Source: Marsupella aquatica (lineage: Eukaryota; Plantae; Marchantiophyta). Taken from it: a stretch of DNA of 64,000 bases. Numbering within the stretch: position 1 is the stretch's first letter; every line of letters starts with the position of its first letter. The position numbers and the translations under genes are program-made. Location of the stretch: assembly GCA_973895155.1 (NCBI GenBank), contig OZ316894.1, positions 11,005,874 through 11,069,873 on the forward strand, written 5' to 3'. The notes beneath the pieces are model-generated. The model was not told the DNA's origin and did no database searches. It saw only the letters and a list, made by a program, of their open reading frames with translations. Of the stretch, positions 17,401-64,000 are shown one piece after another.

Positions 17401-18592
17401 GGAGGCTGGCTGTTACATAGCCTATCCTTGCAAATCTTTAGACTTAAATTCAAATAATGTACTAAAATGGAATTGGGCCAGATAGAGGCATTGAGTATGT
17501 GCCAATTAATAAAGTAGTGGAGACAGGAGGTTGCTAACTAAAGTACCCTAGCCTGTCTCGCAACAACACAAATCACCTCCCTTTGGGGGGCATTTTGTAA
17601 AATCTTTTTTGCTTTGCGTGGATACTGGCATTAACACGTTGAGGCTAGCATGAATGGCAAGAAGGTTGTTTTTTCTATTCACAATACTTTCATGTAAAAT
17701 TTGGATATTCTTGTTTAATTACGTTATAGTGCAAAGACAAGCTATTGCCCTAAACACATAGGGCAATACTGATTTTGAGAGAAACTAGATTGAATTCATG
17801 CGCAGCATGCCAACATGTATAGATTTCATCCGGGCAAAAGCCTTGTGCAGTAGCACAAAGTACTACAGTTGCATATCTGTGTGAATCATTAATTAGATAA
17901 TTAGAGTCAAATGCAAATAACCTATTCAATTGGGATGGGACTAGACTTGGGATGGGACTAGACATAATGATCCAAAAGAGGGAAAGCTTAGCTGACGAGG
18001 AAGCGCGAATTAACATAGTAGGAGAGGAGAGGAGAGGAGAGGAGAGGAGTGAAACAGAGCAGTGGCGAGAAACAGAGTCACCAGAGACAGAGAACAGAGT
18101 CACCAGAGACACAGAGGAAAGGAAAACAGAGAAGAGAAGAGAGGAAAAGTGGCGAGAAACAGAGTCACCAGAGACGAAGAGGAATGGAACCATAGAAGAG
18201 AAGAGAAACAGAGTAGTGGAGAGAGAGGGAGAGGAGAAGAGAAGAGGCGGACCGCTCATGAAGTAGACATGACATCCGAGAAGGAAGCCGAACGCCGAAA
18301 CGAAGGTGAGCTCCCCGCAGCGCCGGCGGCACAGCAGCATGCTCGCGTACGACATGGCGATGGGCGCGAGCAGCAGCAGATCGCTCCCAGGCGGAAGACC
18401 GTAGTGCGAGACCAGCGCTCCAGTGACGGCGGCGTACCAGTGCCGAGCTCGGGGCGCCTCTTTCGGCACCAACCGGCACCCCCACCCCAATGGTATTGTC
18501 GCGAGGAACGCAATCAGGAACCGCACCACCGGCACGGAGAGCCCTGACGCATCGGCCGCCCTCTCGATCACCGGCGACATCGTACTCATCAT
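14477..18592 (-). CDS. LPCAT: Membrane-bound O-acyltransferase (MBOAT), lysophospholipid acyltransferase LPCAT/LPLAT-like, 503 aa
   Basis: Exons 18592-18253, 17030-16818, 16445-16146, 15881-15681, 15421-15238, 14750-14477 are all GT-AG and join to a 1512-nt open frame. Motifs: GGIDATGALMVLTLKVIS, NYQDG, RWKFYFIWSISEA, WNIHVGFWLRHYVYE and catalytic-His AVWHG. Confidence 0.93.
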
Positions 18593-18596
18593 TCTT

Positions 18597-18635
18597 TCAA
18601 TTGGATTTTGGATTTTGGGCTCCACAACTCATCAT
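18597..18635 (-). promoter_or_regulatory. Candidate upstream ORF (MMSCGAQNPKSN*) ending 4 nt before the LPCAT start codon
   Basis: AAAATGATGAGT...TGA, then AAGA, then ATGATGAGT of the main ORF. Requires the TSS to lie upstream of 18635. Confidence 0.4.
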
Positions 18636-27865: not shown

Positions 27866-30800
27866 TCATGGAGGACGCGGAGGAACAGGTTGAACCTGAA
27901 GTGTGTCTTCATGAATTTGCCATAAGCCATCCCATGCACCAAATTCCCGGGCCAGGTCCTGTCGTGCATCCGCGAAGGTGGTCTTCCCTGACCGAATCCT
28001 GGCCCTATGTCTGGCCCAGTCACGTTTGAGGTAAATGCCAAGGCGTTGCCAGGCCTTCCTGATGACTCCGTGAGGATTTGGTGGTGTATGCTCAATAAAG
28101 TGTGTGCATCGGTCCTTCCAAATATTCCAGCAAATAATAGCCCTGAGAAGATGCCAGAGCTTTGCTGGAGTGTCCCACGTATCTGGAAGTTCAGCCCCGA
28201 CGAAAATGTGGACTGGTAGGAGGAGGATCCGTCCTGCTCCGTGAGAGAACGCGCAGTGTTGAAGAATGGATTGCACCAAGGTCCATATCCCCTGAGACAC
28301 AACACACTCCCAAATGCAATGAACGATGTCTTGGTGTTGGTTCAAACCGCATCTAGTGCACCATGTACTAGGATCAGTGGGTGGGAGACGAGGGAACCTC
28401 CAGTGCTGTGTTGCCGGGATGCGGTAAATGAGTTGCCACAGGTAGCAGCTTTCCCGAGCAGCACGAAAGGGGAGCCAGGTGCGTGTCCATAGTGTTCCAG
28501 GGTCAGGGGTCCAATTCAATCGAAGTGCCCATTTGTGCAAGGCCTTGTGGAGGATTCTAGGGGATCTCCCCTGGATTACCTGTAAATGAGCAGTGGATGT
28601 ATCCAGGAAAGGAAGGCCATCCTTCCACTCGTACTGGAGCAAGGGTGCCAGAAGGCTGATAGGCCTCACGATGTGAAGCATGAGGACCGTAGCAGCACTT
28701 GACTTCCTAACCAAAACCCTGTGCAGGAGTGCCTCCGGTGGTGGTGCAAAAGTGGCCATCTTGTGTAGACAGTTGTTGATGACTTGGAAGGTCCGTTTTG
28801 GTGCAGAGGTAGCCTGGGCGAATTGCCATTGGGTCGTAATGAGTTGCCTCGTGGTAGAGAACTCCCAGATGTACAGGTTGCCATTCGAAAGCCATGCTTC
28901 CATGAAAATTGGGAGTACTCCACTATGCTCATGGTGCAGTTCCGGAACACTCCTGAGATTGGCTATCATCTTCTGGTAAGCACGAGCACAATTCCGGGGT
29001 AGTAGTGCACTAGGCCCGTCCTCCCACCTCAGGAAGTGCCCCTATGCATCCAGGACATCTTGCATCAAATGAAAACCTGCCCTCCTAATTTTACGTTGTG
29101 GATTGCTGTGGCACTTCGCCCCACTAGAGTTGATATGGTTGAGATGAGGTCGCCATGGAGGGAGGTGCCTCCAACCTTCTAAGTGTCCAGGAGGTGTGGG
29201 CCTCAAATGTTTCTTGACGACATTCCATGCAGTGCAGACATTGATCCAGACCTGTGAACCATCCCGAGGGAGAGTATGGCAGTGAGAGAATGCCCACATA
29301 AAGTTGTCAGCTCCCCATTTTTGCAAAGAGAGTTTCCTAATCTCAAATTGAAGGAGTCGTCACAGGGGGTGATCTCCTTCCGCCAAAGCCCAAATTATGA
29401 AATTCCCAGCCAAAGCTATGAATTGTGCCACCAAGGAGATCAGTCCGAGTCCCCCGTGGCTCTTTGGCTTGGTGATAGTAGCAAAATCAACCCTGGCCTG
29501 AGCCTTAGTGTTCTGCCCCGCCCACACAAAGGCGGTAATCTTCTTTTGCAAGTTGTCTAGCGTGCTAAGCTGCCCAGCCCATATGGTAAGAGAGAACCAC
29601 ATAGTGCTCAGAACCAAGTGATTGGCCACAATGACCCGGGCGATCAGCGAGTCAGAGGTCTTATGGACTTGATCCAATCTTGACTCCAGCTTTTCAGATA
29701 GATAATGGACCATTTGATGTTCCGAAATGTGCTGCGCGATAGGAATCCCAAGGAGCTTAGTGGCACTGTGTTCATCTTCCCACCTCCAAGGTAGCCGCCT
29801 GAATTCAATTGGGATCCACCTTGGAGAAATGTATGCGGCCTTGGTTTTTTCCCAGGCGCAGAAAAGGCCGGAAGCCTTGCCGAAGAGGTCTAGAACCAGC
29901 TTGCTTCTATCAAGAAATTGTGTCATGGCCCGAATCAATAGAGCTAAGTCATCAGCAAAGAAATTATGAACATTGTGTACCCCCAGGTGTGGGATGTCGA
30001 CACCCTGAATGGAGCCCCTGCTGACTTCTCTGCTTAAGATGTTGCTAAGGGAGTCGATCGCGATAAGAAAAAGTAGAGGAGACAATGGACACCCCTGTCT
30101 CACCGAGCGAGCAAGGTTGAAAGGTGAGGCCATCCTCCCATTAATTAGCACTGCCGAAGATGCAGAGGCATGGGTGGCACTCAGAAAGCGCGTGAGCAGG
30201 CCGTTGAACCCCGTCTTCTCCAAGATTGACAGCAGGAAATGCCATTCAAGCTTGTCGAAGGCCTTGATGATGTCCAGCTTCAGTAGTATGTAATCCAAAC
30301 CGGATGTCTTAGCATGGTGCATTGTTTTGTTTAGAAGCATAAGAGAATGGTGGTCCATGTTGCGCCTTGGGAGGAAGGCAAATTGCTGAGGCGAGATGAA
30401 ACGCTATAAAATCGGAATGAGCCGCATCTGGAAAGCTTTAGCTCTGATCTTATGGGCTACATTCAACAACGTAATGGGGCGCTTATTGGTGAGGGATCTT
30501 TGGTCGTCTTTCTTTGGGAGGAGGACAATGAGGCCCCGGGTGATCTCGGGAGAGAAGTCCTCCTCGGCCAGGCCAAGTAAAAGTGCTCTGTGAAGCGATG
30601 GGCCCACCGTGTGCCAATTTGCCACGAAGAATTTGGCGGGGACCCCGTCTGGGCCAGGGCACTTATTGATTGCCAGTGCAGCTGCTGCTTTCCCAAGTTC
30701 TTCCACCATGAGGGGTGCATTGAGCAGATTCTGATCCTCCAACGTGATGCGCCTAGATTGTAACTCGAGGACCTGAGACACTTGTTCCCAGTTGAATCCA

Positions 30801-32230
30801 GCTGATTGTCCGAGGATGCCTTGGAAGAAGTTGGTAGCAGTGGCAGCCCAATCTTCCCACCCACTGATTGTCCGAGGATGCCTTGGAAGAACTTGGTAGC
30901 AGTGGCAGCCCAATCTTCCCACCCACTGACGATTTGTTCCTTGGGGGTAAGTAGATGGGTGATCTCCTTATTCATGGCCAGCCCCAAAAAGCTCCTAAAG
31001 AAGAGTTTGGAGCATTTATCACCCTCGCCAATCCACCTAGATTGAAGGATAAAATCCATCCATCGAACCTGTTCATCTTCAAATTCATGGATCAGGGTCT
31101 CCACATCCTTGAGGGACCTCTGATACACTGAATCCATTGGGTCTCTCTCCAATTGAAATTGAGCAAGGGCCAAGTTGCGACGAAGCAAAGTTTATTTCCT
31201 TCTACCTTCTCTTAATAGCTTTTCTCTTACCCCAGCATCGATCGATCTTCTGGGCCTTTTTAAGACACCGAATGAGAATGTTATCCACCTTCATGCCCCT
31301 GGCAGTACGAATTTCCTCCTCCTGCTCTCACATTAGTGAGATATGGTCCTGAAAGGCACAAATTTGTTGGTGATCGGCATTCATTCGATGCAGAGATGGT
31401 CTCTTGATGAGGCCCGTGGGTGTGAGCTGGGCAATTACCGGGGCATGATTGGATAATGTGATGTTGGGTAAGATGGTGGATGAAACATCAAATTTCTCCC
31501 TAGAAGCTCCCCTAGAGATATAAATGCGATCGAGCCTTCTCAGAACCCGATTGCTACCAGCTTGTACATGTTGCATGCCTGGGACATGTCGAAAGCTTCT
31601 CTTATTATCCCAATTGAATCTCAGGTGCCCTAGATGTTCCTGGAAAGTGTCAACCAGGTGCAAGCGTCGCTTAAGGTGGCGCCAGGCCCGTCCTTCGCTG
31701 CCCACAATAGTATTGCCGATGCACCCCCTATGGTCCGATTCCTGTTCAATCATGTTGAAATCCCCTAATAGAATCCAGGTGAAGGAGGGATCCAAACAAT
31801 TGAAAAGCGCCCTCCAAAGGTCCATCCATGCTCGAGCAGAGTTAGGAGCGTAAACCCCCAGAAACCCCACCTTACCCAATCCTGCATGAATCATGCAGCA
31901 CCATGCAGCCCGACCACCCTCCAAGACACCTTCAGAAATAACGTATTGATAAAGATCATTCTTTATGGCCAATGCCATGCCCCCCGAACCTGCCTCCACC
32001 CTGCTGTTGCGGACAGAATGTGCTCCATCCGCAGTGGGGGCACAAATCCAATGTGTTGTCCTCTAGACTTCACTCAATTTGAAGATTTGGCCAGCACGGA
32101 GTTTGTGCTCCTGAATGCACAGAATGTAAGGGGAACGTTGCAGCCCGTCCAGGATGAAGCGGGCTCATAGGCGCCTTGTGCGTGATGCCAAACCTCGTAG
32201 GTTGTAGGTCAGAATGGTGAGATTGGGCAT
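27866..32230 (-). pseudogene. LINE ORF2 (endonuclease, reverse transcriptase, zf-RVT), disrupted
   Basis: MPNLTILTYNLRG, GVYAPN, LLGDFN, RLDRIY, SNHAP (EN); KCPGPDG, KLDIIKAFD, VRQGCPLSP, FADD (RT); CTRCG..DIVHCIWEC (zf-RVT). Several frameshifts and stops. Confidence 0.92.
30802..30925. repeat. 62-bp tandem duplication inside LINE ORF2
   Basis: Units start at 30802 and 30864 and differ at one base; CTGA microhomology at the junction; causes a frameshift. Confidence 0.9.
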
Positions 32231-33884
32231 CGTCAGTCGGAGGGATCTTAAGGCAAGACGGAGTTTGATGTGTGGGTTCCAAAAGTCTTGGGCGTTTTGC
32301 TCGAGTGGGTATGTCACTAGGTGAGAGGGGCAATGGATCGGAGTCGGTCTTGGAGGATTCACGAGAAAAGGGGCGTTTTTGGATGGTGACGTTTGCCAAA
32401 TCAGTGGGAGGCTGGGGGGAGGCCAAATTTGATGGAGGGATCCCAGAGATGGAGTGAGTCACCTCAACAGCAATCGACATTGCCTCCACAACCAGAGTTG
32501 TTGACCCGGTCGCAAGGGTTGGTTTGACCACCCATACCAGCCTCGGAGGTTTTTGTGGATTGGGATGGGAATGTGCCGGACTGGCAATGGTAACAGGCTC
32601 TTTGGGTGTTGCCACCAAAATGGTGTGGCTAGTGTCGCCACTACCTGCTGGATGGTGTGATTGGGTCTCCCTTGGGCTACTTCGTGTGCCCTGAGGCGTA
32701 TCGGTGTTTGGATTGCCCAGCTGCCTCCGGGAATTCTTTGCAATCTTGTGATGGGTTTTGCGCTGGTTTTTGCGAGAAGAGTTGCCCAGGGGAGGTGGCT
32801 TGGTGGAGTCGTGAGTAGCCGAGGCTGCGGGGTTGTTGGTGCTCTTGGAGGCTTGTTCCGCTTCAAAATCCGTAGCCCTGTCCGCAAGGTGTTGAAGTTT
32901 AGCTTCCTCCCTCTGCTGTTGCTCTTCTGCACGATCCCTCCAGTAATCTGCCTCCGCTCTGGCCCGATTGGCTGCCTTGTGGGCCACTTCTTGACACTAT
33001 TGATACACCACAGCATCCAATCGGCCCTTTTTTTTGTCGTTTTGGATGACGCAATTGGATGCACCGCCTCTCCGCCTAAGGAGTTGAATTGTAGATTTTG
33101 ATCCTTGAAGAATTGTGGTCGTGGTAGCGGGCACTTTGAAGCAAAATGCCTGTAGGAAAAGCAAAAGTAGCAGCGAAGGTTTCTGCCGATGTAGTCAAAG
33201 TAAATGGTGGTGGTGCTAGGGCTGCTGAGTTGGAATTTACCGTATGCAGGGAACAACTTGAGAGTGGTTTCGACGATTGCAGAAATGTGGTGATTTTTGG
33301 TGCCAGGTGCTTGCTTAGCATGGATGAAACGTCCGATGGGGGCCACCACAAATTTGATGACTGTATTCATAAATCTTCGGGCTACCCTGCTTAATGTAGA
33401 CAGAGACCAGATGCTTGCAATCCGGTGTGTTGCATGGATCAAACTTAGGCGTGTAGTCATTGATGGCTGCAAAACGGTCCAGAGCTTTGAGAGGGGAGGC
33501 ATTGGTTAAGCTCTTTTTGACATGGTCCCCCACATTCGCGTCAAATTGAACCACAAATAGAGCCTGGGGCAGCTCGTCATGTAAGGACAGCTTAATTTCA
33601 TGCTCCTGATTGTATGCCGAGATCCAATCTTGGGCCAGGCGGGTGTCAAATTCAGATTTGAAACCAAGCACGACCTTGTTTCCATAAATCCGCTTAGTAC
33701 CAAGCTGAAGGACCTCCTTTGGAATGTCAAAAATCTCTTGAGTTAGGACGGTGGGTATGGAAGGAGTAAGTCTGGTCCCCAGTGTCTTGATCGGAGGGCA
33801 GCTCCGCGCATCATCTTCATGCCTTAAGTGCGTTGGATGAGTTGGTGTAGGCCGCTTAGAATGTCAAGATGAGCTGCTGGCCAT
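32070..33884 (-). pseudogene. LINE ORF1 (gag-like, zinc knuckle), disrupted
   Basis: ATG at 33884 and TGA at codon 7; CYFCFSYRHFASKC knuckle; frameshifts near 33345 and at the T-run near 33030. Confidence 0.75.
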
Positions 33885-37990: not shown

Positions 37991-38578
37991 TGTTTTGTGA
38001 AACACACAGACATTAGGCTAGTACACTTATGATACATGAGAACTCACTCCAATGCTTCTCACTAAATCTGACATACATCTATTCACTTTGCCTACTGTCA
38101 TGTCAATATCAGGTCTAGTGTAAGTTTTGAAATACATGATACTAGGTATTGCCTTACAATAATGAATCTTGGATATTAGCCTCCTCCATATAGCATCTGT
38201 GGGACATTAAGTTAGAAACGTTATTCGAAAGGGGTACTCATTGGCTTGTGACGATCCACATTGAACCTATCAATTACATTTACATCAATCATAGTTTAGG
38301 GATTTCCAAGTTCTTACTTAGGTCCTACCTTTGTGGGCCCTAAGTCCTTTATTTAAGCTCAACATCTAGCAGTGGCTGACTGAGTTTAACAATGTCAAAT
38401 CTATCTTTAACTTCACTGAAAATGCCATCCATATAATTAGAACAAAATAATTAGAACAATAATAAAATCACAGACCCTGAGGAATTTACAGCCCATTACC
38501 CACTCTTTGGGTTACCCTACTCCTCTTTGCTCTTAAGTGGCCAATAGGATGGGATTCACATGTAGTTTCTTTGGCTAC

Positions 38579-39237
38579 CCCGGTTTGAAGTGACGGGCAA
38601 CTTGCCGAGTTGCCCGCACGTAAACTCGGCATTTGCCGGACCAAAATGCCTCTATTTGACGCATATTCCATCTTATTCCCCGGCCCGGCCCAAACTCTTC
38701 CCGGCCTTGTCCTGGACGCTACCACCCTTCCCGGCAACCAGCCCGGCCCCTCCCCGGACCTGGCCAAACAGCAGCCGGGGGCGGGAAGGGGCAAGCCGGG
38801 TCCGGGTGGGAGGAGGGGAGGGGAGGGGAGGAGGGGAAGGTGAGGAGGGGAGGGGAGGAGGGGAAGGTGGGGAGGGGAGGGGAGGGGAGGGGAGGGGAGG
38901 GGAGGGCCGGGCCGGGTCCGGGTCCGGGTGAGGGGAGGGTGAGGAGGGCCGGGTGAGGAGGGGAGGCTGGGACTGGGAGCCGGGGGATGTCCGAGCCGGG
39001 ACCGCAGGCCGGGAGATGTGGGAGCAGGGACCGGGGGCCGGGGGATGTGCTCGGGCCAGGACCGGGGACCGGGGCCGGGACGGAGGAAACAAAAGGGAAA
39101 CGAGACCGGGTGATGGGGCCGGGAGGTCATGGCCGGGCCGGGCCGGGACCGGGGGATCGAGACCGGGAGAGGCCGGGTGTCGACTTGCCGGTTGACGGCC
39201 TCGGAAGGGTCTATTTGCCAGGCAAGTCCAAACCGGG
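38579..39237. mobile_element. Second CCCGGTTT-terminus, 8-bp-TSD non-autonomous TIR element with G-run-rich interior
   Basis: Termini CCCGGTTTGAAG...TCCAAACCGGG; TSD TTGGCTAC (38571-38578) and TTGGCTAG (38238+1000 = 39238-39245); interior (GGGGA)n. Confidence 0.8.
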
Positions 39238-39676
39238 TTGGCTAGTTACCCTTGGCGGCCTTCCCACTTGTAAATTGTTTAGTCTATTATATATTAATAT
39301 TTAATATTGATTTAAAGTTCACCAATAAAGTCAGAAAGAAATTTCTGTCTTGGCTAGATTCTCTAGGTACAAATAATGGCGCCCCTTCTCTGGCTGCAAT
39401 GTATCTTGTCATTTTCGATTTTTATTATTATTAATATGGGTTTTTTAAAGGCTAGCACAAAATCATGACCCTGGTGCTTATGCAGCCCAGCAGTTGTCGT
39501 GATGCCAAACATTTGTATTCCCAACACATTCTGTTCTAGTGCAATCAAGTAGGAGATCCAACCATTGCACAAAGGAGATCAGATGTTTGTAATATTATTA
39601 TTTAGTCGTCCTTTTCGGACGTCACCCACTCACACATCTGCGTGAATATCGATGAAAGGATCTTGAGAGGTACTCA

Positions 39677-50763: not shown

Positions 50764-53700
50764 TTTTATTATTATTATTTTTTTCTTTTTTAGGAAGGCG
50801 ACAATGCGCAACTTTATTCAACGACACCCGCGGCGAAAACCAGCAAGAGGAGAAAAACAAGCCTGGAACCCAGGGTGCCTGAGAGCCCCCCCCCCCCCCC
50901 CAAGGCAAGAGCACCGGCCCCCAACGAGCCGCAGCAGAGAGGACCGGGCAGCAAGCCAGCAACAACAGACAAAGACCAGGACCCAGGGGAACCCAAGACA
51001 GCATCCAAGCCAAGGGGAACACGAAGGCCCACCAAGAGGCACACACCAAGGGCCCAAAGGGGATTCAGTGCAGGTCATCGGGCATAAGTGAACCAAGATC
51101 TAAAGTGCCAGCAAACGGAAGGCAAGTCAAAAGGACATTGATCCTGAAAACAAACTGGCAATTACCCCTCACAGGCACGAAAACCGTGAAGAGCAAAAGC
51201 ACCCCTCTAATGGTGGGGGACACAATGGAAGACATAGGTAGCAGAATCATTCAAGCACAAAGAACAACAACAGGATAGCCACTTCAAGGATTATTATGTT
51301 TGATGGTGCATCTATCAGTCATGTCAGTCAGGTCAATGAGTGTCCTGCTTAAGCTCCTAGTTTTTCTTGTCCCCTTAGTCCTTTGAAGGGTCGCATGGAC
51401 ACTGATGACAACCCCATGGAGGATAAGTTGCAGTGGGAATCTGGTGGCGGTGGCTTGGTATGTTCATTGGCTTCTTTCAGTCCAGATGCTAGTGATCATT
51501 TGATGCATCAGAAGAAGAAAGCCAGGGTCTTGCTTCTGTGAACGGATGGCAGTGTCCAACTTGCCAAAAAAAGAGCATCCAGCTGCTTTATTGAGCCTGG
51601 TTCCGACAGCCATTTGGTTGAGCTGAGTCCAGCGGGTTCTCAGCCTAGGACACTCGTAGAGCATATGCTCGATGGTCTCAATGTTGCCTTGACAAGCTGT
51701 GCAATGCCCATTGCTCATGTCCCATTTCATAGCTCTCAAGTTGGAGAAGAATCCAGCATTGAGGACTTTCCAGAAGTCCAGTTTAACTCTAGGAGAGGTC
51801 CAGCCAGTCCACAAGTGAATCCACCGTCTTCTCCAGGTCTCAGGTGTGTCCATTGAGTGCCATCTACGGTTGAGTTGTGCAGTAGGCATGGTGTGTTGTT
51901 GCATCATGAGAGCCCAAGTTTTAGTCTGGATGTTCCATCCTTTTTTTTCTCCTTTGGTCCATCTCCAAACCCATCCCTCTGCATTTCTCAATTTCACAAA
52001 AGCAACCCCACTAGATCGATGTAGCAGCTCCATGATCTGTGTCAGGAGCCCCAAAGCACGCCCCCTGGTAGTTCTAATCGATCCAATAATTTGTTCAATG
52101 GTCTTCCATCTATTCTCATGAGTGACCAAGTCTGCAACAGTGAGGATTTTCCTGGTCGCCAATAGGCTCTGGTATTCGCGTATCTCATGCTCTCTTGCAG
52201 TAATGTGGCTGTGAATCAAGAATAGAAGTTGATCAATGAAAATACTGGTAGGTATTTTTCCTGTGGCAGGCTCAAAGTATAGGTATCTGTGAGCGGATTC
52301 CCAGCCCCAAAGCATACAGTTTAGGGTAGGGGCCAGGGATACCTTCAGCTCAGGGTAAAGAAGAAGAGTTTCACTGGGATCCCAATGTTTGCGTTCTTTT
52401 TTGAGTGGGCCTTTCTGCACACCAATGCTAATCATAGTTCTCGCCATGCAAACCCAAGCAGTGTCAAAACCAGTGAGCAGCTTGGTGATACTTTGCATTT
52501 TGCAAACCTGGGATTGAAGATCAAAAGATCGAATGGCCAGTCCTCCCTCATCATAGGGTCTGGTGATGGTGTCCCAGGCAACTAGGGCTTTTTTATTTGC
52601 TCCGATGGTGTTTTTTCCCCACAGGAAGTTGCGACAGACCTTTTCAAGTTGCTGGTATCCAGTCTTCTGGATGTTGAGAAGCATCAGGTGATATACCGGA
52701 ATCGCCCTTAGAACATGCTTAAGAAGAACTAACCTGGCAGCTTGTGTAAGAGTCCTGTTAGTCCAATGCCTCAGTCTCTTGCAAACTTTGCCAAGAAGGA
52801 ACTCTGTTTCCTGAGAGGGCTTAATTCCATTCCCAATGGGGCAGCCCAGGTAGGTGATGATCTCTCCCTTGGCGGCAATGCGGCAGCCTGTTCTTGCAAT
52901 CCAGTCAGGTTGATCAGTGTGGTCAAGCTGAATGATTACAGATTTTTCAATGTTCAGAAGTGCCCCAGAGATTCTCTCGTACTTCTTCACGACACTGCAC
53001 GCAATAGCAAATTCGAGTTCAATGGCCTTAAGAAAAAGTCCCATATCATCGGCAAAGAGTTGGTGAAGAAGCTTCTTCTCAGTGCCAGTGTTGATTCCTT
53101 GAAGTTCTCCAGAATCAAGTTTAGCCTGAAGCAAACACATCAGTGGTTGAGTAGCAATGGCGAAAAGAAGTGAGGCTGCAGGGCAGCCTTGTCTAACTCC
53201 TCTCTCAAGTGGAATCTCTCTGGTGAAGCCTTCGTTAACATGAACCTTAGAGACAGCATTGATAACCAATCCTTTAATCAAGGAGATGAATTTAGGGTCA
53301 AAATTCATGTGCAAAAGGGTGTCCCAGAGGAAGGTATGATCAATCCCATCATAGGCTTTGGCAAAGTCCAATTTTAGAAAAACTGCGGGTTGCTGAGTGA
53401 TTTTGGTGAATTCTTGTCCCACTTTGAATGCCTGTACATTGTCCATAATGCTCCTACCAGCAATAAACCCAATCTGTTGAGAAGACACAAGTTTGGGCAC
53501 CACCTTCTTGAGTCTATTGGAGATGATCTTGGCTGCAATCTTATGTGTAATAGTAAGCATGGTTAGTGGCCTCCAGTTCTTGAGTAGCTGAGTATCTCCA
53601 TCCTTAGGAATGAGCTTAATTACTCCCGTTGACACTTTTGAAGTAAGTAATCCATCCCTCCAGAAGGCTTTGACCATGTTGCAGCAGTCCTCTTTCATCC

Positions 53701-54111
53701 ATTCCCAGCTTACTTGGAGAACTTCAGCAGTTACCCCATCTAGTCCAGGCGACTTGTTGGTTGGGAACTTTTGCACCACTGCTGTGATTTCAGTGTCACT
53801 AGGTTCACCAATTAGAGCCCTGTTATGCTCATCGTTGACTTTGTTGCGAATGAGAGACAACGCTTCAGCTCTCTCAGCTGAATTGTTGCTGACGTTTGCA
53901 TCTGCAGTGAATAAGGAAGAGTAGTACTCACTGGTTTTCTCTAGGATTTGTTTTTCATCATCTATCACACTGCCTTCATCTAGGGCAAGAAGCTTGATAG
54001 TTTCCCTGCATTGTTTGGCTTTCACTTGTAGGAAGAAATACCTTGATGGGGCATCACCAAGAGAAAGCCACCGAACTCTGCTGCGTCTGCGCCATATCTC
54101 AGCCTCTTTGA
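50762..54111 (-). mobile_element. L1-clade LINE (3' part), interrupted by the CACTA insertion at 54112
   Basis: A/AAT-rich tail at 50762-50791 preceded by AATAAA; long open RT frame; the sequence switches to a CACTA terminus at 54112. Confidence 0.9.
51464..54111 (-). pseudogene. LINE ORF2 RT plus zf-RVT portion (~880 aa open)
   Basis: KSPGLDG, WRPLTML, KLDFAKAYD, GVRQGCP, LFADD, YLGCP, CTACQ..ETIEHMLYEC. The N-terminal MALKCTSV of the ORF track is read from the CACTA terminus. Confidence 0.92.
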
Positions 54112-55084
54112 CACTAGTACATTTTAGGGCCATTATCCGATAGCTATTCCGTCGGATCCCTTCGGAAACTTCATTTCGGAAAAATCAACTATCCGATGTA
54201 ACCCGCTTCACAATATCCCATCCAATCCTCATCGAACATCAACCATCGGACTTACTTCGGACTTTCCGTTGCTGATGCCGACGGACTTTCCGATTCCAAC
54301 CCATTCGCAAACCTGCATATCCAATCCAATACTTATCGGACACCAACAAACACACGTACCTGTCTCAAAACGACCACTGTTCGATAGTAATGGTATGGGA
54401 TAGTTCCATAGTTTTTGCTACATACATTGCGATGCATGGAGTATCGGAGTTTACGATACGTTTAGTATCGGAGTTTGCCTCTGGAGAATTATCGGATGTT
54501 GCGTTAGACGTGGTATCGGATATTGCGATGTAATGAGGTTTGGAAAATCCAATGACGGTGCCATCGGACACATTGTTTTGATGTTTTGGTTTTGTTGGAG
54601 GGGTCCGATGCAAAAAGGATCGGATGCTGCGAAGGGGATTGAAACGGAAGGACCGATGAAGGTACGTGCAAACGAACATCATAACGGATGGCTTTGTTAC
54701 AATAGCTAGGGTTTCATGGGTGGTTATTTTGGGTTTGAGAACATCAACCAATATATTAGGGTCCAAAGGAGGCTCAAAACATGTGGTCAAAATCTCATAT
54801 TGAAAAAGGGGATGACCCCGATATGTACAGAATGGAATGGGCCTACCTAGTAGACCCATCTCGGCGACTGTTTGCTCCATGGGAACACCTAAATGGAGCA
54901 CTGAGTAGAGACTACACTCCATGGCACCTGCTAAGATCTAATCAAAGCTACCAGACCTACCTAAACGGCACTAACCTCTAAAAAGGTGTGTTCCATCCCT
55001 TCTTCTTCTTGTGGCGAGAGCAAAGCTGGGGAACAGGTGCGGGATCCACAACCGGTGGAGCCACCTGCTGACCAGATGGTGGGT

Positions 55085-57492
55085 CTAATCCTGTCCTACC
55101 CCCTGACCCACTAGATGCACCGCTAGGCACGGTAGAAGTCCCACCAACCCCTGACACAACAGAGTGAAAGGAGGCCTCGCCCCCCCGGCAGACCTACTAG
55201 AGTGATGAGAGGCTGCGGCTGCGGATGATGCATGTGGCCCATGCCGTGCTGTACTGCCACCTGACTCACGAGATAGTGCTAGACCCCTAGAGCCACCATC
55301 GTCCAAGTCACCACTGCCTTGACAAGGGGGGCTAGGTGCAGCAGATACTCCTCGATGAGGGGGGCTAGGTGCACCAGATACTCCTCGACGAGGGGGGTTA
55401 GGTGCAGAGCATACTCCTGAGCGATGGTGTGGGCCTGCACCACCTCTACTACCCCCTGAAGGCCCCGGCCTTGCAGCCCGCGATGCTCCCCGTGACTAAT
55501 GAGAGCTCACACCATCAATAGCATGTGACCCACCTCCCCTCCCTTCCAATGTGAGGGTAACATGAGGTATCTGGGCAGTAGGGGCAACTCTAGGAACAGT
55601 CTGGGCAACTATAGGAACAGCCCGGGAAACTCTAGGAATAGTCGCGGTAGCTCTAGGCTCCCTCTGCAACCCTGCCTCAGATGCTGAGTCCTCATCATCT
55701 GACTCCCCAGACCCCTCCTCCTCCTCCTGCACATTACAATTAATTAAAGTAAGGAACTTGGTCAAAACTCTACAAATGTAGCAATGCTCTAGCTAAGCAA
55801 AACATTGTCCCAACTTAGGTAGGGGGAGGAAACAATTACCTCTCCCAGCTCATCCTCAATCTGTCGCTTTAGAGCACAGGGTCCATCCCTTGCTGCTAGT
55901 TCCCTCTCTTTTGGATCAATGGGACGACCATACTCCCTCTCCTGACATTTCAAAATTAAAAGACCACTTCAGCACAATACATTTAGTTTCAACCATAAAA
56001 TCCACTCCCTATACCAAACTTCTCCCTCTCAAAACTCTATGCCTTCTATAACTTCTATAACTTACTTCACCCCTAGCAAATACTCTAAACCCTAAAAAAA
56101 TCACAAGTGAACTCAAGAAGGGGTCCATTCCGGAATTTCATGCAAGTCAAGCATCCCTATCCTATGCAATCAAAAAAACCCTAAACCCTGCCCGTTTTAA
56201 ACAAAATAAACCCAAATTCACTCGAAATATACTCATTCCGATGTAGCATCCGATGTGGATTCTATCGGACTGCTATCGGACCCCTCATCCGCTAAATTTG
56301 AATGTTACTATGTCCGATGCGGGTTCCGATGCGGGTTACAACGAACAAACATCGGACTTAACAGTCCCAAGAGCAAAACAAGGGGGATCGGAACGTGATA
56401 AAGCAAAACGGGACAACCAAAATGTTCACTCTTCGCAAGAGAAGTCAGGTGGTCAGGGAGAGGAGCAAGGGAGGAGGGAGCTAGGAGGGAGGAGGGAGGA
56501 GCCACTTACAAACTCGACCTTCAATCGATTGGAGCCACCTTGCCCCATCCGGTGAGTCACAATGGGCCTCTCTTCTACTCGCTTCAATGTTGCTATGATG
56601 TTTGCAGGAGGTTTTTGAAGTCTTGCTGCTTGAGCTGCCCACTGTCAAAGGTTCAGTTGGAGGGGGGCCATGTCAATATCCTCCCCGACAGCTCGCTTTT
56701 CTTCTGCAATCCTGATTTCATTGTCCCAATGTCGTCTCTTTAGCCAGGCTCGAACAGAGAGCTCCTCCTCAAGCCAAGCTATCCATGCATTCTGGGGAAT
56801 CACATCTGGACACTGGTGCTCCCTGACCACCTCTGCATCTATTGGCAAATCAGTAAGGTAATCCCTCATCTTCTCCCGCACATGATTCCTTGCATCTCAA
56901 ACAGAGGCTGAAATTCGACTGTTTAGAAATCTGTCTTCAAGGTGGGCTCCGTTCTTGAATCTTTCTTTGATCTGCTCCCGAACCCTGGTCCTCTCCTCCT
57001 CTGTTTTCTTACCCCAGTAGTCTAGTGGCCCAAAATTTGCCCTCACAACCTGCAAGAATTGGCTGCGGAACAAATTGTAGCTCCTAGGCATTGGAGCCCC
57101 ACCTGAATTGATAGCCAGCTCAGGTTGCAGAGCCCTCTCAGCCTCCCTTCGCCTTTGCTCCTCAACTCGCAGCCTCTCTGCCTCCCTAGCTTCTCTTCAA
57201 AGCTTTTCTCCCTTTTCTGAGGAGAGAGAGCCTCCTCACCATTTGCCCTAGCCCTCTCCGCCTCCTTTCTCTTCTTCCTTGCCTCTTTCTCTGTTGCGAG
57301 GCCTGCTGCAGCAACCTTCTCTGCCTCACCTTTTGAGGCATCAAGCAAAACCTGAAGCACCGGGACTACTCTTGCTGCATCCTCCACTGAAAGCCCTGCC
57401 TTGGCCACAAACAACTCCCTCATTATCTCCTCATATGGCCGGGATGGCCCAGCCCCGTCTCCCCCATCACCCGATCCTCCTTCCCCCACCAT
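55085..57492 (-). pseudogene. TnpA-like (En/Spm accessory) gene, 3 exons, mutated
   Basis: Exons ~57492-56510, 55941-55840 and 55726-~55085 with GT-AG junctions in phase 0. Coiled-coil N-terminus, CPDVIPQNAW and HRMGQGG motifs resembling CACTA TnpA-like proteins, P/S-rich tail with 33-bp repeats (55326-55420). Contains stops and frameshifts. Confidence 0.6.
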
Positions 57493-57849
57493 CTCTCCTC
57501 CTTCCCGAGCTCCTCCCCTCTCAGCCTTAGAAAATTTTCTGAAATGACTGATGTGCGAAGGAAGCCCCGTAGTGTGCGCCTTCGCAAGCGCATCGGGATT
57601 TACGGATTTCAAATTTTGAATCAAGTCCGATTGTTTTCGCTTCGGAACGTCCGTAGCGTATAGTATTGAATGTCAAATCGGACCTTCCGATGCATGTTGC
57701 ATCGGACCCCTCCTCCAGCTCGTTATTCCTCGCTTTTACGAAGTGTGATACGTTGGAAACGGTATCGGACCCCTCGTGTAATGTTATCGGATAGGGGGTT
57801 AAGGAGGGCTTATGTAGGGGTCATGTAGGTGTATGTGGGAAGGACCGGT

Positions 57850-58487
57850 GGCCTCATTCACAATTGGGTGTACCTCGCAGGAACCACTTTCAGGACTCAA
57901 AAACATGTTTTTTTAGTGAAAAATGACTTTCATAACATGAAAAAAGGTTCATCATGATTTTATCTCAAGACATTTAAGTCTAATTTTTTCACAATACTAT
58001 TTTACATGGTGTAACCTACCTCACCATGTAGATACATCAAGTTTTCAACTGTTTTAAGGGATCCTGTTATTGATGGTCCTAAATAAGCCAAAATTACTGA
58101 TTATTTTTGTCCTGTACATAAAGGTTTAGTGTGTGTCACTATTTAAGTCTTGAAATATAAGATTATGCTATTAGTATGCATGCTTTGGTAAAATATTATT
58201 GTCTAAAATGCATTTTTTAGAGTCCTTTTGAGTCCTGAAATGATGTGACCCGTTGCGTGACAAGTCCTTTTATCAATCTTTGAAGGACATATAAGGAGAG
58301 CTTCAAAGTCTCAAATGCTAGATAGTTTAATGAATGTTACCAACATATAGGATGTTTATTAAGTATAGTACATCAAATTTTCTATATCATCTCATTACAC
58401 CCTAAAAATGATATCCTAAAGCATAATAAACTATGGTCACTTTTGAGTGTGACGTTCCTTTTGGGTCCTCCAATTGTGAATGAGGCC
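57850..58487. mobile_element. MITE with 18-bp TIR and 4-bp TSD (Sola-like) nested in the CACTA
   Basis: TIR GGCCTCATTCACAATTGG / CCAATTGTGAATGAGGCC; TSD CGGT at 57846-57849 and 58488-58491; AT-rich interior. Confidence 0.85.
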
Positions 58488-59046: not shown

Positions 59047-60349
59047 ATGTTTGCTTCCGATAGTTCCACGTCGGATTCAGACTCAGACACAAGCTCGTCT
59101 GAGGAGGAGGTTCCTCCACCCCCTCCTCCAGACCAACCTCGTGCTCGGCCACTAGGGTCCATACCTTGTTGGTGTGTGAGATGTAAGGGACTTGTGGTTC
59201 GACATGCCTGGGAGACTTGTGAGCACATCGAGAACTATGGTCGCCACAAGGGTGATACACTAGGGTATTTGCCTAGCCAGGTAATAAATACGTCCCTCCT
59301 TCATTCCATGAAATTCCAATAATTAGTCCACAAATGCTAAATTACTTTACATCTAAACAACAATTCATGTATTGATTTGTGTCAAATCATTGTTTGTTGA
59401 AATAGGTGCCTCGTAGACACCCACCTCCTCTGGTTGATAATGCTATGTGGTTGGAAGGGTTTCTAGCAAGGGCTAGTGAGTTGCTTGCATCTGCCCTTGC
59501 CCATCCACCTCTTAGTCCCCTTGCTCCTATCCCCACACATGCGCATGTAGACAAGGATGCACCGGTCTCTCGACCCGAGGAAATGGATACTAGGGTCCTA
59601 CGTACACGTTCACGGTCTCGCAGACATAGACAACAATCTGAACCGATGGATCAGGTAGAGAATCGGGAGGAGGCGTTACGTAGTGATCGACCACCCGGAA
59701 ATGGAGATTATATTTGTGTTGAGGGCCGGTTTGGACTATCTTATCTCACTGGTAGGGCTGCTGATGTTTGGAAGGACTTTTCTCCTAGTCTCTTCAAATT
59801 TCCAGATTTCATTCATACTGATGAACCAGTTGACATATGGGGTCGGCCTTGGATAGTGAAGGCATCCTCTATTGGTGCTGATATAGGATATGGTCTATAT
59901 GCTTTGGAGGACATTGTGGTCCCTCCAAAGCCATGGAGACGTGGATATGATGGAGAGCACCCTTCCCTTACATTGGGGCTGTATATAATGCAAAGAGTTT
60001 GAAGACTTTGTTGCGTCAGCACCCAAGCTGGGGGGTGTACGCCTTGAGGATGGACTCAGACCCAGATGAAGTTTTGACTAGGCCGTGGCATTGTAGGATG
60101 ATTGATGGTGACCCTATTCGGAATGGTAATTTAGCAGGGTACATCAATAGTACAACGGGTAGAGGTAGAGATTTTGAGGCTAATGTAGAGTGGATCCAAA
60201 TTTTTGGCCCTCCTAGAGATCCGTATTTTGTGAAACATATGGATGACCATATCATGACAGTAGCCATTAGGACTATTAGAGCCGGTGAGGAGATATTGTG
60301 TGAGTATGAGTGGGACGCCCCAAAATTGTCCCTACGTTGCCGTCCATGA
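59047..60349 (+). pseudogene. Transposase-associated-domain plus SET-domain gene inside the CACTA (one frameshift)
   Basis: Exon 59047-59280 (IPCWCVRCK..CEHIENYG, like the CACTA transposase-associated CxCxxC..H domain), GT-AG intron, exon from 59406. SET motifs: VKASSIGADIGYGLYALEDI, FPYIGAVY, IDGDPIRNGNLAGYINS, ANVEW, IMTVAIRTIRAGEEILCEY. A 1-nt frameshift lies at ~59955-59960. Confidence 0.85.
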
Positions 60350-60529
60350 TAGTATGTTGGACTTACATGCATGTAAATCTTACATTGAATTAATGAGATT
60401 CATGATGATTTATATATATATATATATATATATTGATGATTGTAATGAGATTAATGTTAATGAGATTGCATTGATGTTGTATGATAGAACTAATATGTAC
60501 AATCTGATATTGGGGTCATATCACAAGCT

Positions 60530-63500
60530 ATGCGACAACACATTGTTGAGGCCATGGTGGCCAACCATGGGCATGATGGAGGGATGCAGGAGGATGATGT
60601 ACAACATGAGGGTGATAATCCTACTCAAGCACATCTGGATGAGGAGAGGGCCATGGATGAGCTCATGGACCAATTTTATGATGATGATGTTGATATTGGT
60701 ATGGAGGATATGGGTACAACTGATGACAACACCACTCATCCAGGACCTTCTAGGGGGGGACAGAACAAGGATTGGGAGGAGGCTCAACGTCATGCTCGTA
60801 CTCGCATATTTGAGGGTAGCACCTTATCTCGGCTCTCCGCAATAATGTTGTTGCTGAATGTGCAGCAAAGACATGGGGCCAGCAACCTACTTTTGGATGA
60901 TGTTTTTCGTACCTTGCATGATCGTATTTTGCCACCAGGCAATACCATGCCAGCCTCTTGGAAGGAGGCAAAACAAGTGTTGAAGTCCATTGGCCTCAAG
61001 TATGTAGTGATACATGCATGTGTGAATGATTTCATTCTTTTTAGGGGGGAGCATGAGAATGCAACTGCATGTCCGAAGTGTGAGAAGCCGCGCTACCGTG
61101 ATGACATGTTGACAGGGAAGGTGCCTCAAAAGGTTATGTGATACTTTCCTCTCATCCCCCGATTGCGACATCAGTACCGTTGTGCAGAGTTAGCTTAGTA
61201 CATGGTATGGCACTCAAAGAATCGTTCTGATATGGCTACGAACTCTAGTGCCATGCGGATGATGGTTGACTCTCATGCCAATCGATTTGTTGAGGGCAGA
61301 TGGGGGGAGTTCAGCACTGAACCACGACATGTTCGACTTGGCTTGGCAGTTGATGGTATCAGCCCTTTTGCATTGGCGGGTAAAGCAAAACGATATTCAG
61401 TATGGCCAGTAGTTTTGACTAACTACAATATCCCTCCATGGATGGCCATGAAGAAAGGTCATTTACTGCTCTCCATGATCATTCCGGGTCCTAAGCAAGT
61501 AAAAAAGATTGACATCTACTTGCAACCATTGATTGATGAGCTTTTGCAATTGTGGAGAGGAGTGGATTGTTATGACGGACGTCGCAATACAGGAGGTGTA
61601 CCTCGCGCGTTTACCCTCAAGGCCATCCTTATGTGGACCATGCATGACCTACTAGGTATGACCTGATAAACCTTAGCTTATTTCCTTGATGTACTACCTT
61701 AAATTTAGTGTGCATTAACCTTATTTCATAATTGGTTGGTTGTATATGGGCTTGGTACAGGGTTTGGGTATATCTCTGGATTGCAAACATCAGGCTATCG
61801 AGCTTGCCCTTCATGCGGACCGGATTTGGAGGGAGTGGCAAGACGCAAGTCAAGTACTTTGCGTAAGATAGTTTACATTGGTCATACCAAATATCTTCCA
61901 GCAGACCATCCTTGGAGGAGTGATCATTTCTTGTATGACACTGATGAGGGCCAACCTGATACTCGTCCTCAACCTCAGCGAAAGGATCCAACATATTGGA
62001 GAGAGGTATGGGAGAGAGTTCAAGACCCTGATGATCCATTACAGTTTCTCCGATGTGGCATGACCCGTTTATCTGCATTGTCACAGTTGCCATATTGGTC
62101 AGAGATGCCCATTAATCACTTGTTGGATGCGATGCACATTGAGGGAAATGTGGGGAGATCATTGATTCATCATCTATATGGGGAGAAGAACCACAACTGG
62201 AGAGAAAGTTGTGAGGAGATGGGGATGCATGGTCTTTTGGGTTTTTGGCCATCTTTGGACCCCCCTGGTGATCCCCCTAGCATCCATCCTCCTTGGGTTT
62301 TGACCAGGGCAGAGCGCATAGAGTTTCGCAGACGGATTGGGTCAATGAGGTTTCCCACAGGTTATGGTGCCAATATTTGTAAGGCATTTGGGGGGGATGA
62401 TTCTCCAAAATGGCCATCGTACCTGAAAACACATGATTATCATCGGTTACTAGAACATGTCATTCCAGTTGCGATTATTGGATTGGGTAGTGAGGAACTT
62501 CGTGATGCTCTTTGGTCATTGGGCAAGTTTTTGAGATGGGTATGTCAGAAGGAGGTACCAGAGGATGACATTGTTGCGATGGAGATATTTGGAGTAGAGG
62601 TTGTTTGCAAGTTGGAGAAGGCACTTCCACCCTCATTCTTTGATGGTCAGGTTCATTTCCTCATACATTTAGTGCGTGAGGTAGCAATTGCAGGCCCGGT
62701 ACATTGTCGATGGATGTATTGGGTAGAGCGTTACATGGGGGTGATGAAGTCATATGTCTCTAATCGGGCTAGGGTGGAAGGTAGCATTGCAGAGCGTCAT
62801 CTTGGAGCAGAGAGTATGTTTTATTGTACAAACATAGTTGCCACGCTAGATCCAAGGGCACCTAGGGGATGGATAGATGAGGCGGCACGAGAGGCAGACT
62901 ATGAGGATGATAGACTCACTGGGGCATCAAGAGAGCATGGCTTAGGCTCAGCAGAGCGTTTGCAACTTACAACATTTATGTTGTATAACTCACCAGAGGT
63001 TGTAGGGGAGTGGACAACATTTTATGAGGAGAAGCAAAATAGTTGACAGCCACGGTTGTTTCCCAAGTTTCACCCATACATGAAATCAAAGTTGTTAGAA
63101 GTGGATGCCTTGGTGGGTACTGGAGACAGTATATTACATTACCCACAAGTGACTGATAAGCTTCGTACCTTGGTTCATGGTCCACTGCTTAAAGTCACGA
63201 CTTGGATGGCAATGTGGTCAAAGGGGAGACATTTCCGTGTGGAACGACTTGATGAGAAGAGAGTAGCTACACAAGATTGTGGGGTGATGGGTTGGTTCAC
63301 CCAGGATTCCCAGAGTAGCACGTCGGACATGAACCCCATTCGCTCCACCGTGGCCCATTATGGGAAGATTGATGAGATCCTGACAGTGAAGTACCATGCA
63401 CATACTAATTTGGAGGAGGTGGTATTTATGTGCAAATGGTTCAAGATGAATCTTGTAGGCAACAATCGAACATGTGAAGATGATGCGTGCGGATTTACCC

Positions 63501-63727
63501 GTTTGAAGACATCTGCAAATAGTGTCATTAGTTCCAATTGGAGGTCCTCAGATCCCTTTGCCTTCCCACATCACCTTGAGCAGTGCTTTTACCTACCCTA
63601 TCCAGATGACCCACATTGGTCCATTGTCATGCCATATATCCCTAGATCACGGTCTATAGTCCAAGAGAGACCCAATGTCGTTGTAGTGGAAGACAACGAC
63701 ATCCCCGACCCTCCACAAGCTAGTTAG
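60530..63727 (+). pseudogene. TnpD: CACTA transposase (TnpD/Tnp2 type), with in-frame stops
   Basis: IHACVND..LFRGE..CPKC..RY, PRHVRLGLAVDGISPF, YSVWPVVLTNYNIPPW, IDIYLQPLIDEL, ACPSC, HLLDAMHIEGNV, LKTHDYH, GPVHCRWMYWVERYM, YGKIDEIL, DPFAFP..QCFY. Intron 61656-61760; stops at 61139, 61196 and 63044. Confidence 0.95.
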
Positions 63728-64000
63728 TATATTTTGTATGTAGCTAGGCCCCCCCAACCACACCACCTTCATGTTTTTTTTAATCGGCAATATAAAAGTT
63801 GGCATCATTACTTCTTTAATTGTCATGGTATGCACATGCCCAAAATCTCTTGGTTATATATAGAAGTGTCCTTACTTTATATACCCTTCCTAAGAACCCC
63901 CTGCCTTATGTCCCATTGACCGTCCCATGAAAAAGCCATCGGATTTCCATCGCACCTTCTAAAAACAGAAACCAGACTTTCCGATACTCCCAACTAAGGA

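What the first reader, a model, noticed from the sequence alone, without database searches (positions are those of the whole stretch)
59047..60349. CACTA transposon encoding a SET-domain (lysine methyltransferase-fold) protein
Seen: all hallmark SET blocks in order (GxG 'IGYGLYA', 'FPYIGAVY', 'IDG..GNLAGYINS', 'AN', 'AIRTIRAGEEILCEY'), with no pre- or post-SET Cys clusters and Ser in place of the NH(S) His. The exon is spliced in frame to the element's own transposase-associated exon, so it looks like an integral gene rather than a loose captured fragment. Known: CACTAs usually carry TnpD/TnpA and sometimes ULP1; minimal stand-alone SETs (Chlorella virus vSET, bacterial effectors) methylate host histones; TE anti-silencing proteins exist (Spm TnpA, VANDAL VANC). 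Inference: a transposon-borne chromatin writer or decoy. I do not know of a described SET-carrying plant CACTA family but cannot check the literature. This copy has a 1-nt frameshift near 59957.
Basis: partly seen in the sequence, partly recalled or inferred. Interest (0 to 1): 0.92.

Follow-up and report, generated by a model that had tools for sequence, protein, structure and literature searches.

The report
Plant CACTA transposon carrying SET gene
A cut-and-paste jumping gene in a plant genome carries, directly in front of its transposase gene, its own conserved gene for a SET-fold protein that likely methylates lysines on chromatin; this copy is broken, and SET cargo is already known from other transposon groups.

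Summary
59951-60346 matches Pfam SET above the curated cut-off, and a model of an intact Calypogeia fissa homologue has the SET fold (Z about 11). The gene lies in a CACTA element (left end 54112) just upstream of TnpD. The 1-nt frameshift is at 59960-59962; many contigs in each of four runs lack it. It is not a recent loose capture: 49 non-redundant relatives (29-76% identity) keep GxG, Asn and the final Tyr, and SET adjoins TnpD sequence in three separate clades. Ser replaces His family-wide, which need not kill activity. Exon 1 may be shared by SET and TnpD through exon skipping (splice phases only; no RNA). Activity and substrate are untested. SET cargo is published for HarbingerS, MuDR, Helentrons and red-algal Plavaka (EnSpm superfamily); I found no paper on a land-plant CACTA case. 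This scan already reported the pairing three times in peat moss. Verdict: new variant of a known kind.

The parts
54109..54111 (.). TGA directly left of the element: candidate 3-bp target-site duplication (right copy lies outside the window)
   Evidence: not testable without the right end
54112..54700 (+). Left terminus (CACTAGTACATTTT...) and subterminal region with 12 TCCGAT motifs in both orientations
   Evidence: 44 motifs in the window against 19.6 expected, 0 of 100 shuffles reach it; 14 lie in 1-54111, 30 in the element
55000..57530 (-). Broken, divergently oriented second gene (coiled-coil-rich; candidate ORF2/TnpA analogue); exon limits approximate
   Evidence: no Pfam family, no Atlas hit at 0.9 or more; the stop at 56897 is absent from other copies
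56237..56392 (.). Internal cluster of 8 TCCGAT motifs
57626..57791 (.). Internal cluster of 6 TCCGAT motifs between the two divergent genes
57845..58487 (.). Nested MITE-like insert of about 642 bp with an 18-bp perfect inverted repeat
   Evidence: I9; contigs of runs X1, X3, X4 skip 57845-58486
59047..59280 (+). Exon 1: Ser/acidic tract, poly-Pro, CxCxxC..H..YGRH putative zinc-binding motif; ends in phase 0
   Evidence: no Pfam hit
59281..59405 (+). GT-AG intron, phase 0
   Evidence: same junction in P0001 and nearly the same in L001; a diverged contig keeps both exon sides with a different sequence between (record 13)
59406..60349 (+). Exon 2: variable Pro/Arg-rich linker, conserved N-terminal extension and SET domain (core about 59706-60325), stop at 60347-60349
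59960..59962 (+). 1-nt frameshift of this copy inside the SET domain
   Evidence: contigs of all four runs show one more base here
60488..63727 (+). TnpD-type transposase (Transposase_21, DUF4218, DUF4216) with candidate phase-0 acceptor at 60486-60487, an intron 61656-61760 and in-frame stops at 60491, 61139, 61196, 63044
63938..64000 (.). Start of the right subterminal region (2 TCCGAT motifs); the right terminus lies beyond the window
51464..54108 (-). LINE ORF2 (RT, zf-RVT) cut by the CACTA insertion; flank, not part of the element

Best explanation
This is a broken copy of a multi-copy plant CACTA transposon family that keeps a SET-fold gene directly upstream of its TnpD transposase, and intact copies likely make a small SAM-dependent lysine methyltransferase that would mark histones at the element's own copies to keep them transcribable or accessible. 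Shown: element end, SET match and fold, position next to TnpD, family-wide motif conservation, copies without the frameshift. Inferred from splice phases: one transcription unit in which exon 1 joins exon 2 to give the SET protein (about 390 aa) or skips to 60488 to give TnpD, so both proteins would share the putative zinc motif. Inferred from motifs: catalytic activity, and multiple methylation because the Phe/Tyr switch position holds small residues (switch rule recalled). Speculative: targeting through the shared zinc motif or the divergent ORF2 protein bound to the TCCGAT clusters, and an anti-silencing outcome by analogy with TnpA and VANC.
For: Pfam SET. Fold: Foldseek E 4e-7 to SETD8, VIA Z 11.5 with rmsd 2.8-3.0 over 123-135 residues to COMPASS and PRC2 SETs. 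In 49 non-redundant members: G193 48, G195 48, D266 49, N280 44, final Tyr 41 with 8 gaps and no substitution. SET core 68-77% identical to the C. fissa protein against 38% in the linker; pN 0.37-0.41 against pS 0.62-0.75 versus L001. All 5 stored proteins with a long tail after motif III run on into TnpD-like sequence, and C. fissa P0006 joins the same N-terminus to TnpD; these fall in three clades. Contigs of four runs cover SET and TnpD and lack the frameshift and the stop at 60491, which opens a phase-0 acceptor. LegAS4 has N-F-S at the NH(S) site and is described as an active H3K14 methyltransferase (abstract listing), so His is not obligatory.
Against: No activity, substrate or localisation data. 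Structural scores are tied across SET subfamilies with opposite effects on chromatin, so the activating direction is only an analogy. The family departs from the RFxNHS consensus at two sites (Arg to Gly 45 or Ala 4; His to Ser 47) and one clade has Gln for Asn (5 of 49); motif II Tyr is Phe in 12 of 49. 96 of the 101 family proteins give no genomic context; the fused proteins are gene predictions. The two family loci with DNA (L001, L002) show no TnpD, but they are only 2.0 and 1.1 kb. This copy is dead in both genes.
Confidence: 0.45

Rival explanations
1. The SET protein is an active methyltransferase whose substrate is not a histone: the element's own TnpD or ORF2 protein, or a host silencing factor.
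For: Minimal SET without pre/post-SET Cys clusters; SET7/9, recalled to act on non-histone substrates, scores as well as histone-specific enzymes (Z 11.4). A family-specific N-terminal extension and inserts could form a different substrate groove.
Against: No direct evidence. Published transposon SET cargo is interpreted as histone- or DNA-directed, itself untested.
Confidence: 0.2
2. The protein is a catalytically dead or weak SET acting as a reader or decoy that binds histone tails or sequesters a silencing complex.
For: His to Ser and Arg to Gly in motif III across the family; Asn to Gln in 5 of 49; motif II Tyr to Phe in 12 of 49.
Against: SAM-binding GxG, Asn and the final Tyr are kept at 29-76% overall identity; an active enzyme also lacks the His.
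Confidence: 0.15
3. The enzyme writes a repressive mark (H3K27- or H4K20-like) on its own element or on competitors and so restrains transposition.
For: Top Foldseek hits are SETD8 and PRC2 ties for the top VIA score; H3K27me3 marks transposons in some non-flowering lineages (abstract and passages of 10.1101/2022.10.24.513474).
Against: Scores are tied with H3K4 and H3K36 enzymes at 18-28% identity, so they carry no substrate information.
Confidence: 0.15
4. The SET exon is a neutrally carried host-gene fragment (Pack-CACTA-like capture).
For: This copy is frameshifted; no host genome was available to exclude a donor gene.
Against: Deep family with conserved motifs and exon structure, pN below pS, TnpD adjacency in three clades; no canonical host SET among the 60 hits of the exhaustive search.
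Confidence: 0.05

Closest known systems
Red-algal Plavaka elements (EnSpm/CACTA superfamily), accessory gene PAG2 (10.1101/2025.02.11.637652; passages read)
   Same: SET domain carried as a conserved accessory gene by an EnSpm-superfamily DNA transposon; proposed to modulate chromatin, untested.
   Different: PAG2 fuses SET to an N6-adenine DNA methylase within a three-gene cassette in the Plavaka lineage. Here the transposase is the plant Transposase_21 type with a CACTA end, the SET stands alone behind a putative zinc motif and may share exon 1 with TnpD. I had no PAG2 sequence, so homology was not tested.
HarbingerS and MuDR SET families of Phytophthora (Kojima and Jurka 2014, cited in PMC12730594; only the citing passage seen) and proto-Helentron-Pi SET (PMC4067079; passages)
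   Same: DNA transposons that incorporate a SET methyltransferase gene.
   Different: Other superfamilies, in oomycetes; the Helentron SET is 50% similar to Clr4, whereas this family has no close characterised relative.
Maize and Arabidopsis En/Spm: TnpD plus TnpA (PMC4158355 and 10.64898/2026.08.24.746577; passages)
   Same: CACTA end, TnpD-type transposase, second ORF; Arabidopsis Spm3 makes two products from one gene by alternative splicing and its TnpA has anti-silencing activity.
   Different: TnpA is described there as a DNA-binding regulator, not a SET enzyme; the second ORF here has no TnpA Pfam match; a third, SET-coding exon sits in front of TnpD.
Minimal SET lysine methyltransferases (SETD8, SET7/9, Legionella LegAS4/RomA, giant-virus SETs)
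   Same: SET fold without Cys clusters; GxG, YxG, GN...YIN, GEELxxxY motifs.
   Different: 16-29% identity in the structural alignments; family-specific N-terminal extension and inserts; GYINS instead of RFxNHS. No sign of a close viral or bacterial donor.

Membership tests
CACTA/EnSpm transposon | Terminus beginning CACTA | tested here: met
   CACTA at 54112, cutting a LINE ORF
CACTA/EnSpm transposon | Matching right TIR ending TAGTG and 3-bp TSD | not testable with these tools
   Right end lies beyond 64000; no genome held
CACTA/EnSpm transposon | Subterminal short repeats in both orientations (feature recalled) | tested here: met
   12 TCCGAT in 54112-54700; 44 in window against 19.6 expected
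CACTA/EnSpm transposon | TnpD-type transposase | tested here: met
   Transposase_21 E 1e-39, DUF4218 E 6e-30, DUF4216 E 3e-6 below cut-off; DDE residues not mapped individually
CACTA/EnSpm transposon | Second ORF (ORF2/TnpA) | tested here: inconclusive
   A broken divergent gene is present but matches no family
SET-domain lysine methyltransferase | SET profile match and fold | tested here: met
   the fold is from a predicted model of homologue P0001 (pLDDT 85-95 in much of the core)
SET-domain lysine methyltransferase | Motif I GxG, motif III Asn, motif IV GEELxxxY with final Tyr | tested here: met
   48, 48, 44 and 41 (8 gaps) of 49 non-redundant members
SET-domain lysine methyltransferase | Canonical RFxNHS (Arg and His) | tested here: not met
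   Gly/Ala and Ser; 0 of 49 have His. LegAS4 also lacks the His, so this lowers 'canonical', not 'active'
SET-domain lysine methyltransferase | SAM-dependent lysine methylation | not testable with these tools
   needs an assay
A named histone KMT subfamily (SETD8, MLL/Set1, E(z), Suv39, NSD/ASH1) | Subfamily flanking domains and preferential similarity | tested here: inconclusive
   No pre-SET, CXC, AWS or post-SET Pfam hit; Z 10.6-11.5 tied across subfamilies; best profile E 0.014
Plavaka PAG2 | SET fused to an N6-adenine methylase, with PAG1 and PAG3 | tested here: not met
   No methylase or 2OG-oxygenase Pfam hit in the element ORFs or 16 homologues scanned
Transposase-associated domain (PF13963; pattern recalled) | Pfam match of exon 1 | tested here: inconclusive
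   No hit at E up to 1 for window or L001 exon 1; a CxCxxC..H motif is conserved in 5 of the 6 sequences aligned, P0070 with the first Cys changed, P0001 starting after it

The most novel reading that the evidence does not exclude
An ancient lineage of land-plant CACTA transposons encodes, from the same alternatively spliced gene as its transposase, a previously undescribed SET subfamily (GYINS motif, own N-terminal extension) that writes a histone mark on its own copies: a plant transposon-borne histone writer and an enzymatic counterpart of the TnpA and VANC anti-silencing proteins.
Probability: 0.35. Interest if true: 0.85.

Novelty: new variant of a known kind. Interest (0 to 1): 0.6.

Why it matters
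The plant transposon anti-silencing proteins in the papers I read (VANC, TnpA) are sequence-specific regulators; a transposon-encoded histone methyltransferase in plants would be a different strategy. None of the SET cargoes in those papers is reported as assayed. This family is small, single-domain and has an intact named member (C. fissa CAM6082608.1), so the question whether transposon SETs are active, and on what, becomes directly testable in a plant lineage where repressive histone marks on transposons are under study.

Tried and rejected
No whole genome was held, so no copy census, donor search or right end. No RNA holder listed; this says nothing on expression. The variant table for the SET core alone could not be obtained, so there is no within-genome dN/dS; of the 40 best-supported differences shown (2287 not shown) only three fall in exon 2, all non-synonymous and in the linker. 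Search for longer fused proteins with alignment A3 found none among 6281 candidates, but it also missed P0061, so it is insensitive. Viral contigs: 0 of 45 pattern matches confirmed. GTDB genomes: 2 of 52, short weak matches only. Metagenome scan: 4 of 134, of which L003 and L004 are unrelated bacterial-type SETs. Sequence search of PDB: nothing at E 0.01 with A2, best 0.014 with A3. Substrate assignment from structure was rejected because scores tie. P0094 and P0103 were dropped as chance repeat hits; P0006 and P0047 lack the SET core. The tree root is unreliable (outgroup branch 4.3; weak deep support), so no origin or donor is claimed. The Atlas label 'Type III effector protein' is an automatic name and was not taken as evidence of transfer. 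The wide VIA search was never run. One paper search ('HarbingerS') returned only irrelevant papers. Look-ups of earlier findings by sequence and by place were blank.

Full report
1. The observation. Two overlapping + strand frames carry the SET motifs in order: 59406-60002 ends with GADIGYGLYALEDI, and 59951-60349 holds FPYIGAVY, IDGDP..GNLAGYINS, NVEW and IRAGEEILCEY. The second piece matches PF00856 above the curated cut-off (E 7e-6). Alignment with intact homologues places the break at 59960-59962, one base short. Exon 1 (59047-59280) and exon 2 (from 59406) are joined by a phase-0 GT-AG intron. The NCBI model of Calypogeia fissa P0001 (344 aa, 75% identical in the C-terminal piece) uses the same junction, and metagenome locus L001 (42-48% identical) has a phase-0 intron at nearly the same place.

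2. The element. CACTA starts at 54112 and interrupts a LINE ORF2. TCCGAT occurs 44 times in the window against 19.6 expected; 12 are in the first 590 bp of the element, 8 and 6 in two internal clusters, 2 near 64000. A TnpD-type transposase follows the SET stop after about 140 bp and has four in-frame stops. A broken gene on the other strand has no family match. The right end and TSD lie outside the window. The host is a plant, probably a bryophyte, judged only from the nearest named homologue and two Streptophyta Atlas clusters of 50 and 126 members at TM 0.73 and 0.71.

3. Other copies. Contigs of 4 of the 5 listed runs were laid (two studies, two coded organisms; one may be the source of the window). 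All 30 bins are covered in each. One more base at 59961 or 59962 is seen in 5, 6, 9 and 6 contigs of X1-X4, though not in all depth at that place; the stop at 60491 is replaced in all or most depth. One diverged 724-nt contig keeps both exon sides with other sequence between them, and a contig in X2 and X4 joins 60375 to 60470 with only 30 letters on the short side. Depth is no copy number.

4. The family. The exhaustive search gave 60 hits, 58 of them family members; 101 of 105 stored proteins match the profile. From 106 cores, 82 were at least 115 aa and 51 remained at 90% identity (49 family, 2 outgroup). Among the 49: G193 48, G195 48, motif II Tyr 36 (Phe 12), Y244 47, D266 49, N280 44 (Gln 5), S281 47 (His 0), E328 44 (5 gaps), final Tyr 41 (8 gaps); identity to the window 29-76%. 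Against P0001 the SET parts are 68% and 77% identical, the linker 38%; against L001 pN is 0.41 and 0.37, pS 0.62 and 0.75 (crude Nei-Gojobori). This is purifying selection on a deep family, not a fresh capture.

5. Linkage to TnpD. Five stored proteins have more than 85 residues after motif III; four match the window's TnpD start (E 1e-26, 9e-7, 0.01, 0.02 within that small set) and the fifth matches the tail of one of them. P0061 has SET plus Transposase_21. C. fissa P0006 joins the same N-terminus to the TnpD start. These are gene predictions and count only as adjacency. They fall in three clades with support 0.97-1.0, deep branches weak. The other 96 proteins give no context; L001 and L002 are too short to show TnpD.

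6. Gene structure. With the stop at 60491 absent in other copies, the TnpD frame opens back to an AG at 60486-60487 in phase 0, compatible with the exon-1 donor. Exon 1 could thus serve both products, as Arabidopsis Spm3 makes two products from one gene (passage). Other phase-0 AGs exist nearby and there is no RNA, so this is inference. Exon 1's Cys/His motif is conserved but has no Pfam hit.

7. Fold and activity. The AlphaFold model of P0001 (mean pLDDT 69.6, disordered N-terminus) matches SET domains by Foldseek (E 4e-7) and VIA (Z 10.6-11.5, tied across COMPASS, PRC2, SET7/9, SETD8, ASH1L). Viral SETs match no better. LegAS4 aligns with N-F-S at the GYINS site and is described as an H3K14 methyltransferase (search listing abstract), so the missing His does not imply a dead enzyme. 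I put activity in intact copies at about 0.8, a histone substrate at about 0.6 overall, and an anti-silencing role at 0.45.

8. What is known. PMC12730594 (passages and section 26) cites SET genes in HarbingerS and MuDR families of Phytophthora. PMC4067079 (passages) describes a SET in proto-Helentron-Pi. 10.1101/2025.02.11.637652 (passages) describes PAG2, a methylase-SET protein of red-algal Plavaka elements in the EnSpm/CACTA superfamily. PMC4158355 (passages) gave the CACTA criteria. 10.1101/2022.10.24.513474 was seen as listing abstract and two passages. Ten searches (seven aimed at SET in transposons or bryophyte CACTAs) listed no paper on a land-plant CACTA with SET; I judged most by title and abstract start, and Repbase Reports, subscription journals and bioRxiv supplements were not visible. 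Three earlier notes of this scan report the same pairing in peat moss; they are unchecked AI notes, pointed me to PAG2 and to the exon-within-transposase idea, and are not counted as support.

9. Verdict. A real, conserved SET gene of a plant CACTA lineage, here in a dead copy. New variant of a known kind; interest 0.6, because the concept has precedents but the plant case, the distinct SET subfamily and the possible shared exon are apparently undescribed and directly testable.

Noticed in passing
window 57845-58487: MITE-like insert of about 642 bp with an 18-bp perfect inverted repeat; contigs of three runs skip it and summed depth is about tenfold above neighbouring bins.
   Followed up: partly
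window 55000-57530 (-): Divergent, broken coiled-coil gene inside the element with no Pfam or Atlas family; candidate ORF2.
   Followed up: partly
P0073, P0080, P0084, P0062, P0093: One SET clade has Gln in place of the motif III Asn (GYIQS; P0080 GYNQS); possibly altered or inactive.
   Followed up: no
model m93db077cd3ca, residue 139: In several PRC2 rows the alignment starts at model residue 139 against EZH2 residue 109-110, the region I recall as the SET activation loop; the family's N-terminal extension may fill that place. Weak lead.
   Followed up: no
window 16100-18630 (-): Host-like MBOAT acyltransferase gene fragments (PF03062, E 3e-8).
   Followed up: no
window 27866-33863 (-): A second, broken LINE-like element (endonuclease and RT-like frames by eye).
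   Followed up: no
window 11900-12730 and 38486-39245: GC-rich low-complexity repeat tracts giving spurious overlapping ORFs.
   Followed up: no
window 55317-55418 and 55582-55657: Short tandem arrays (33-nt and 21-nt period, three copies each) inside the element's left arm.
   Followed up: no
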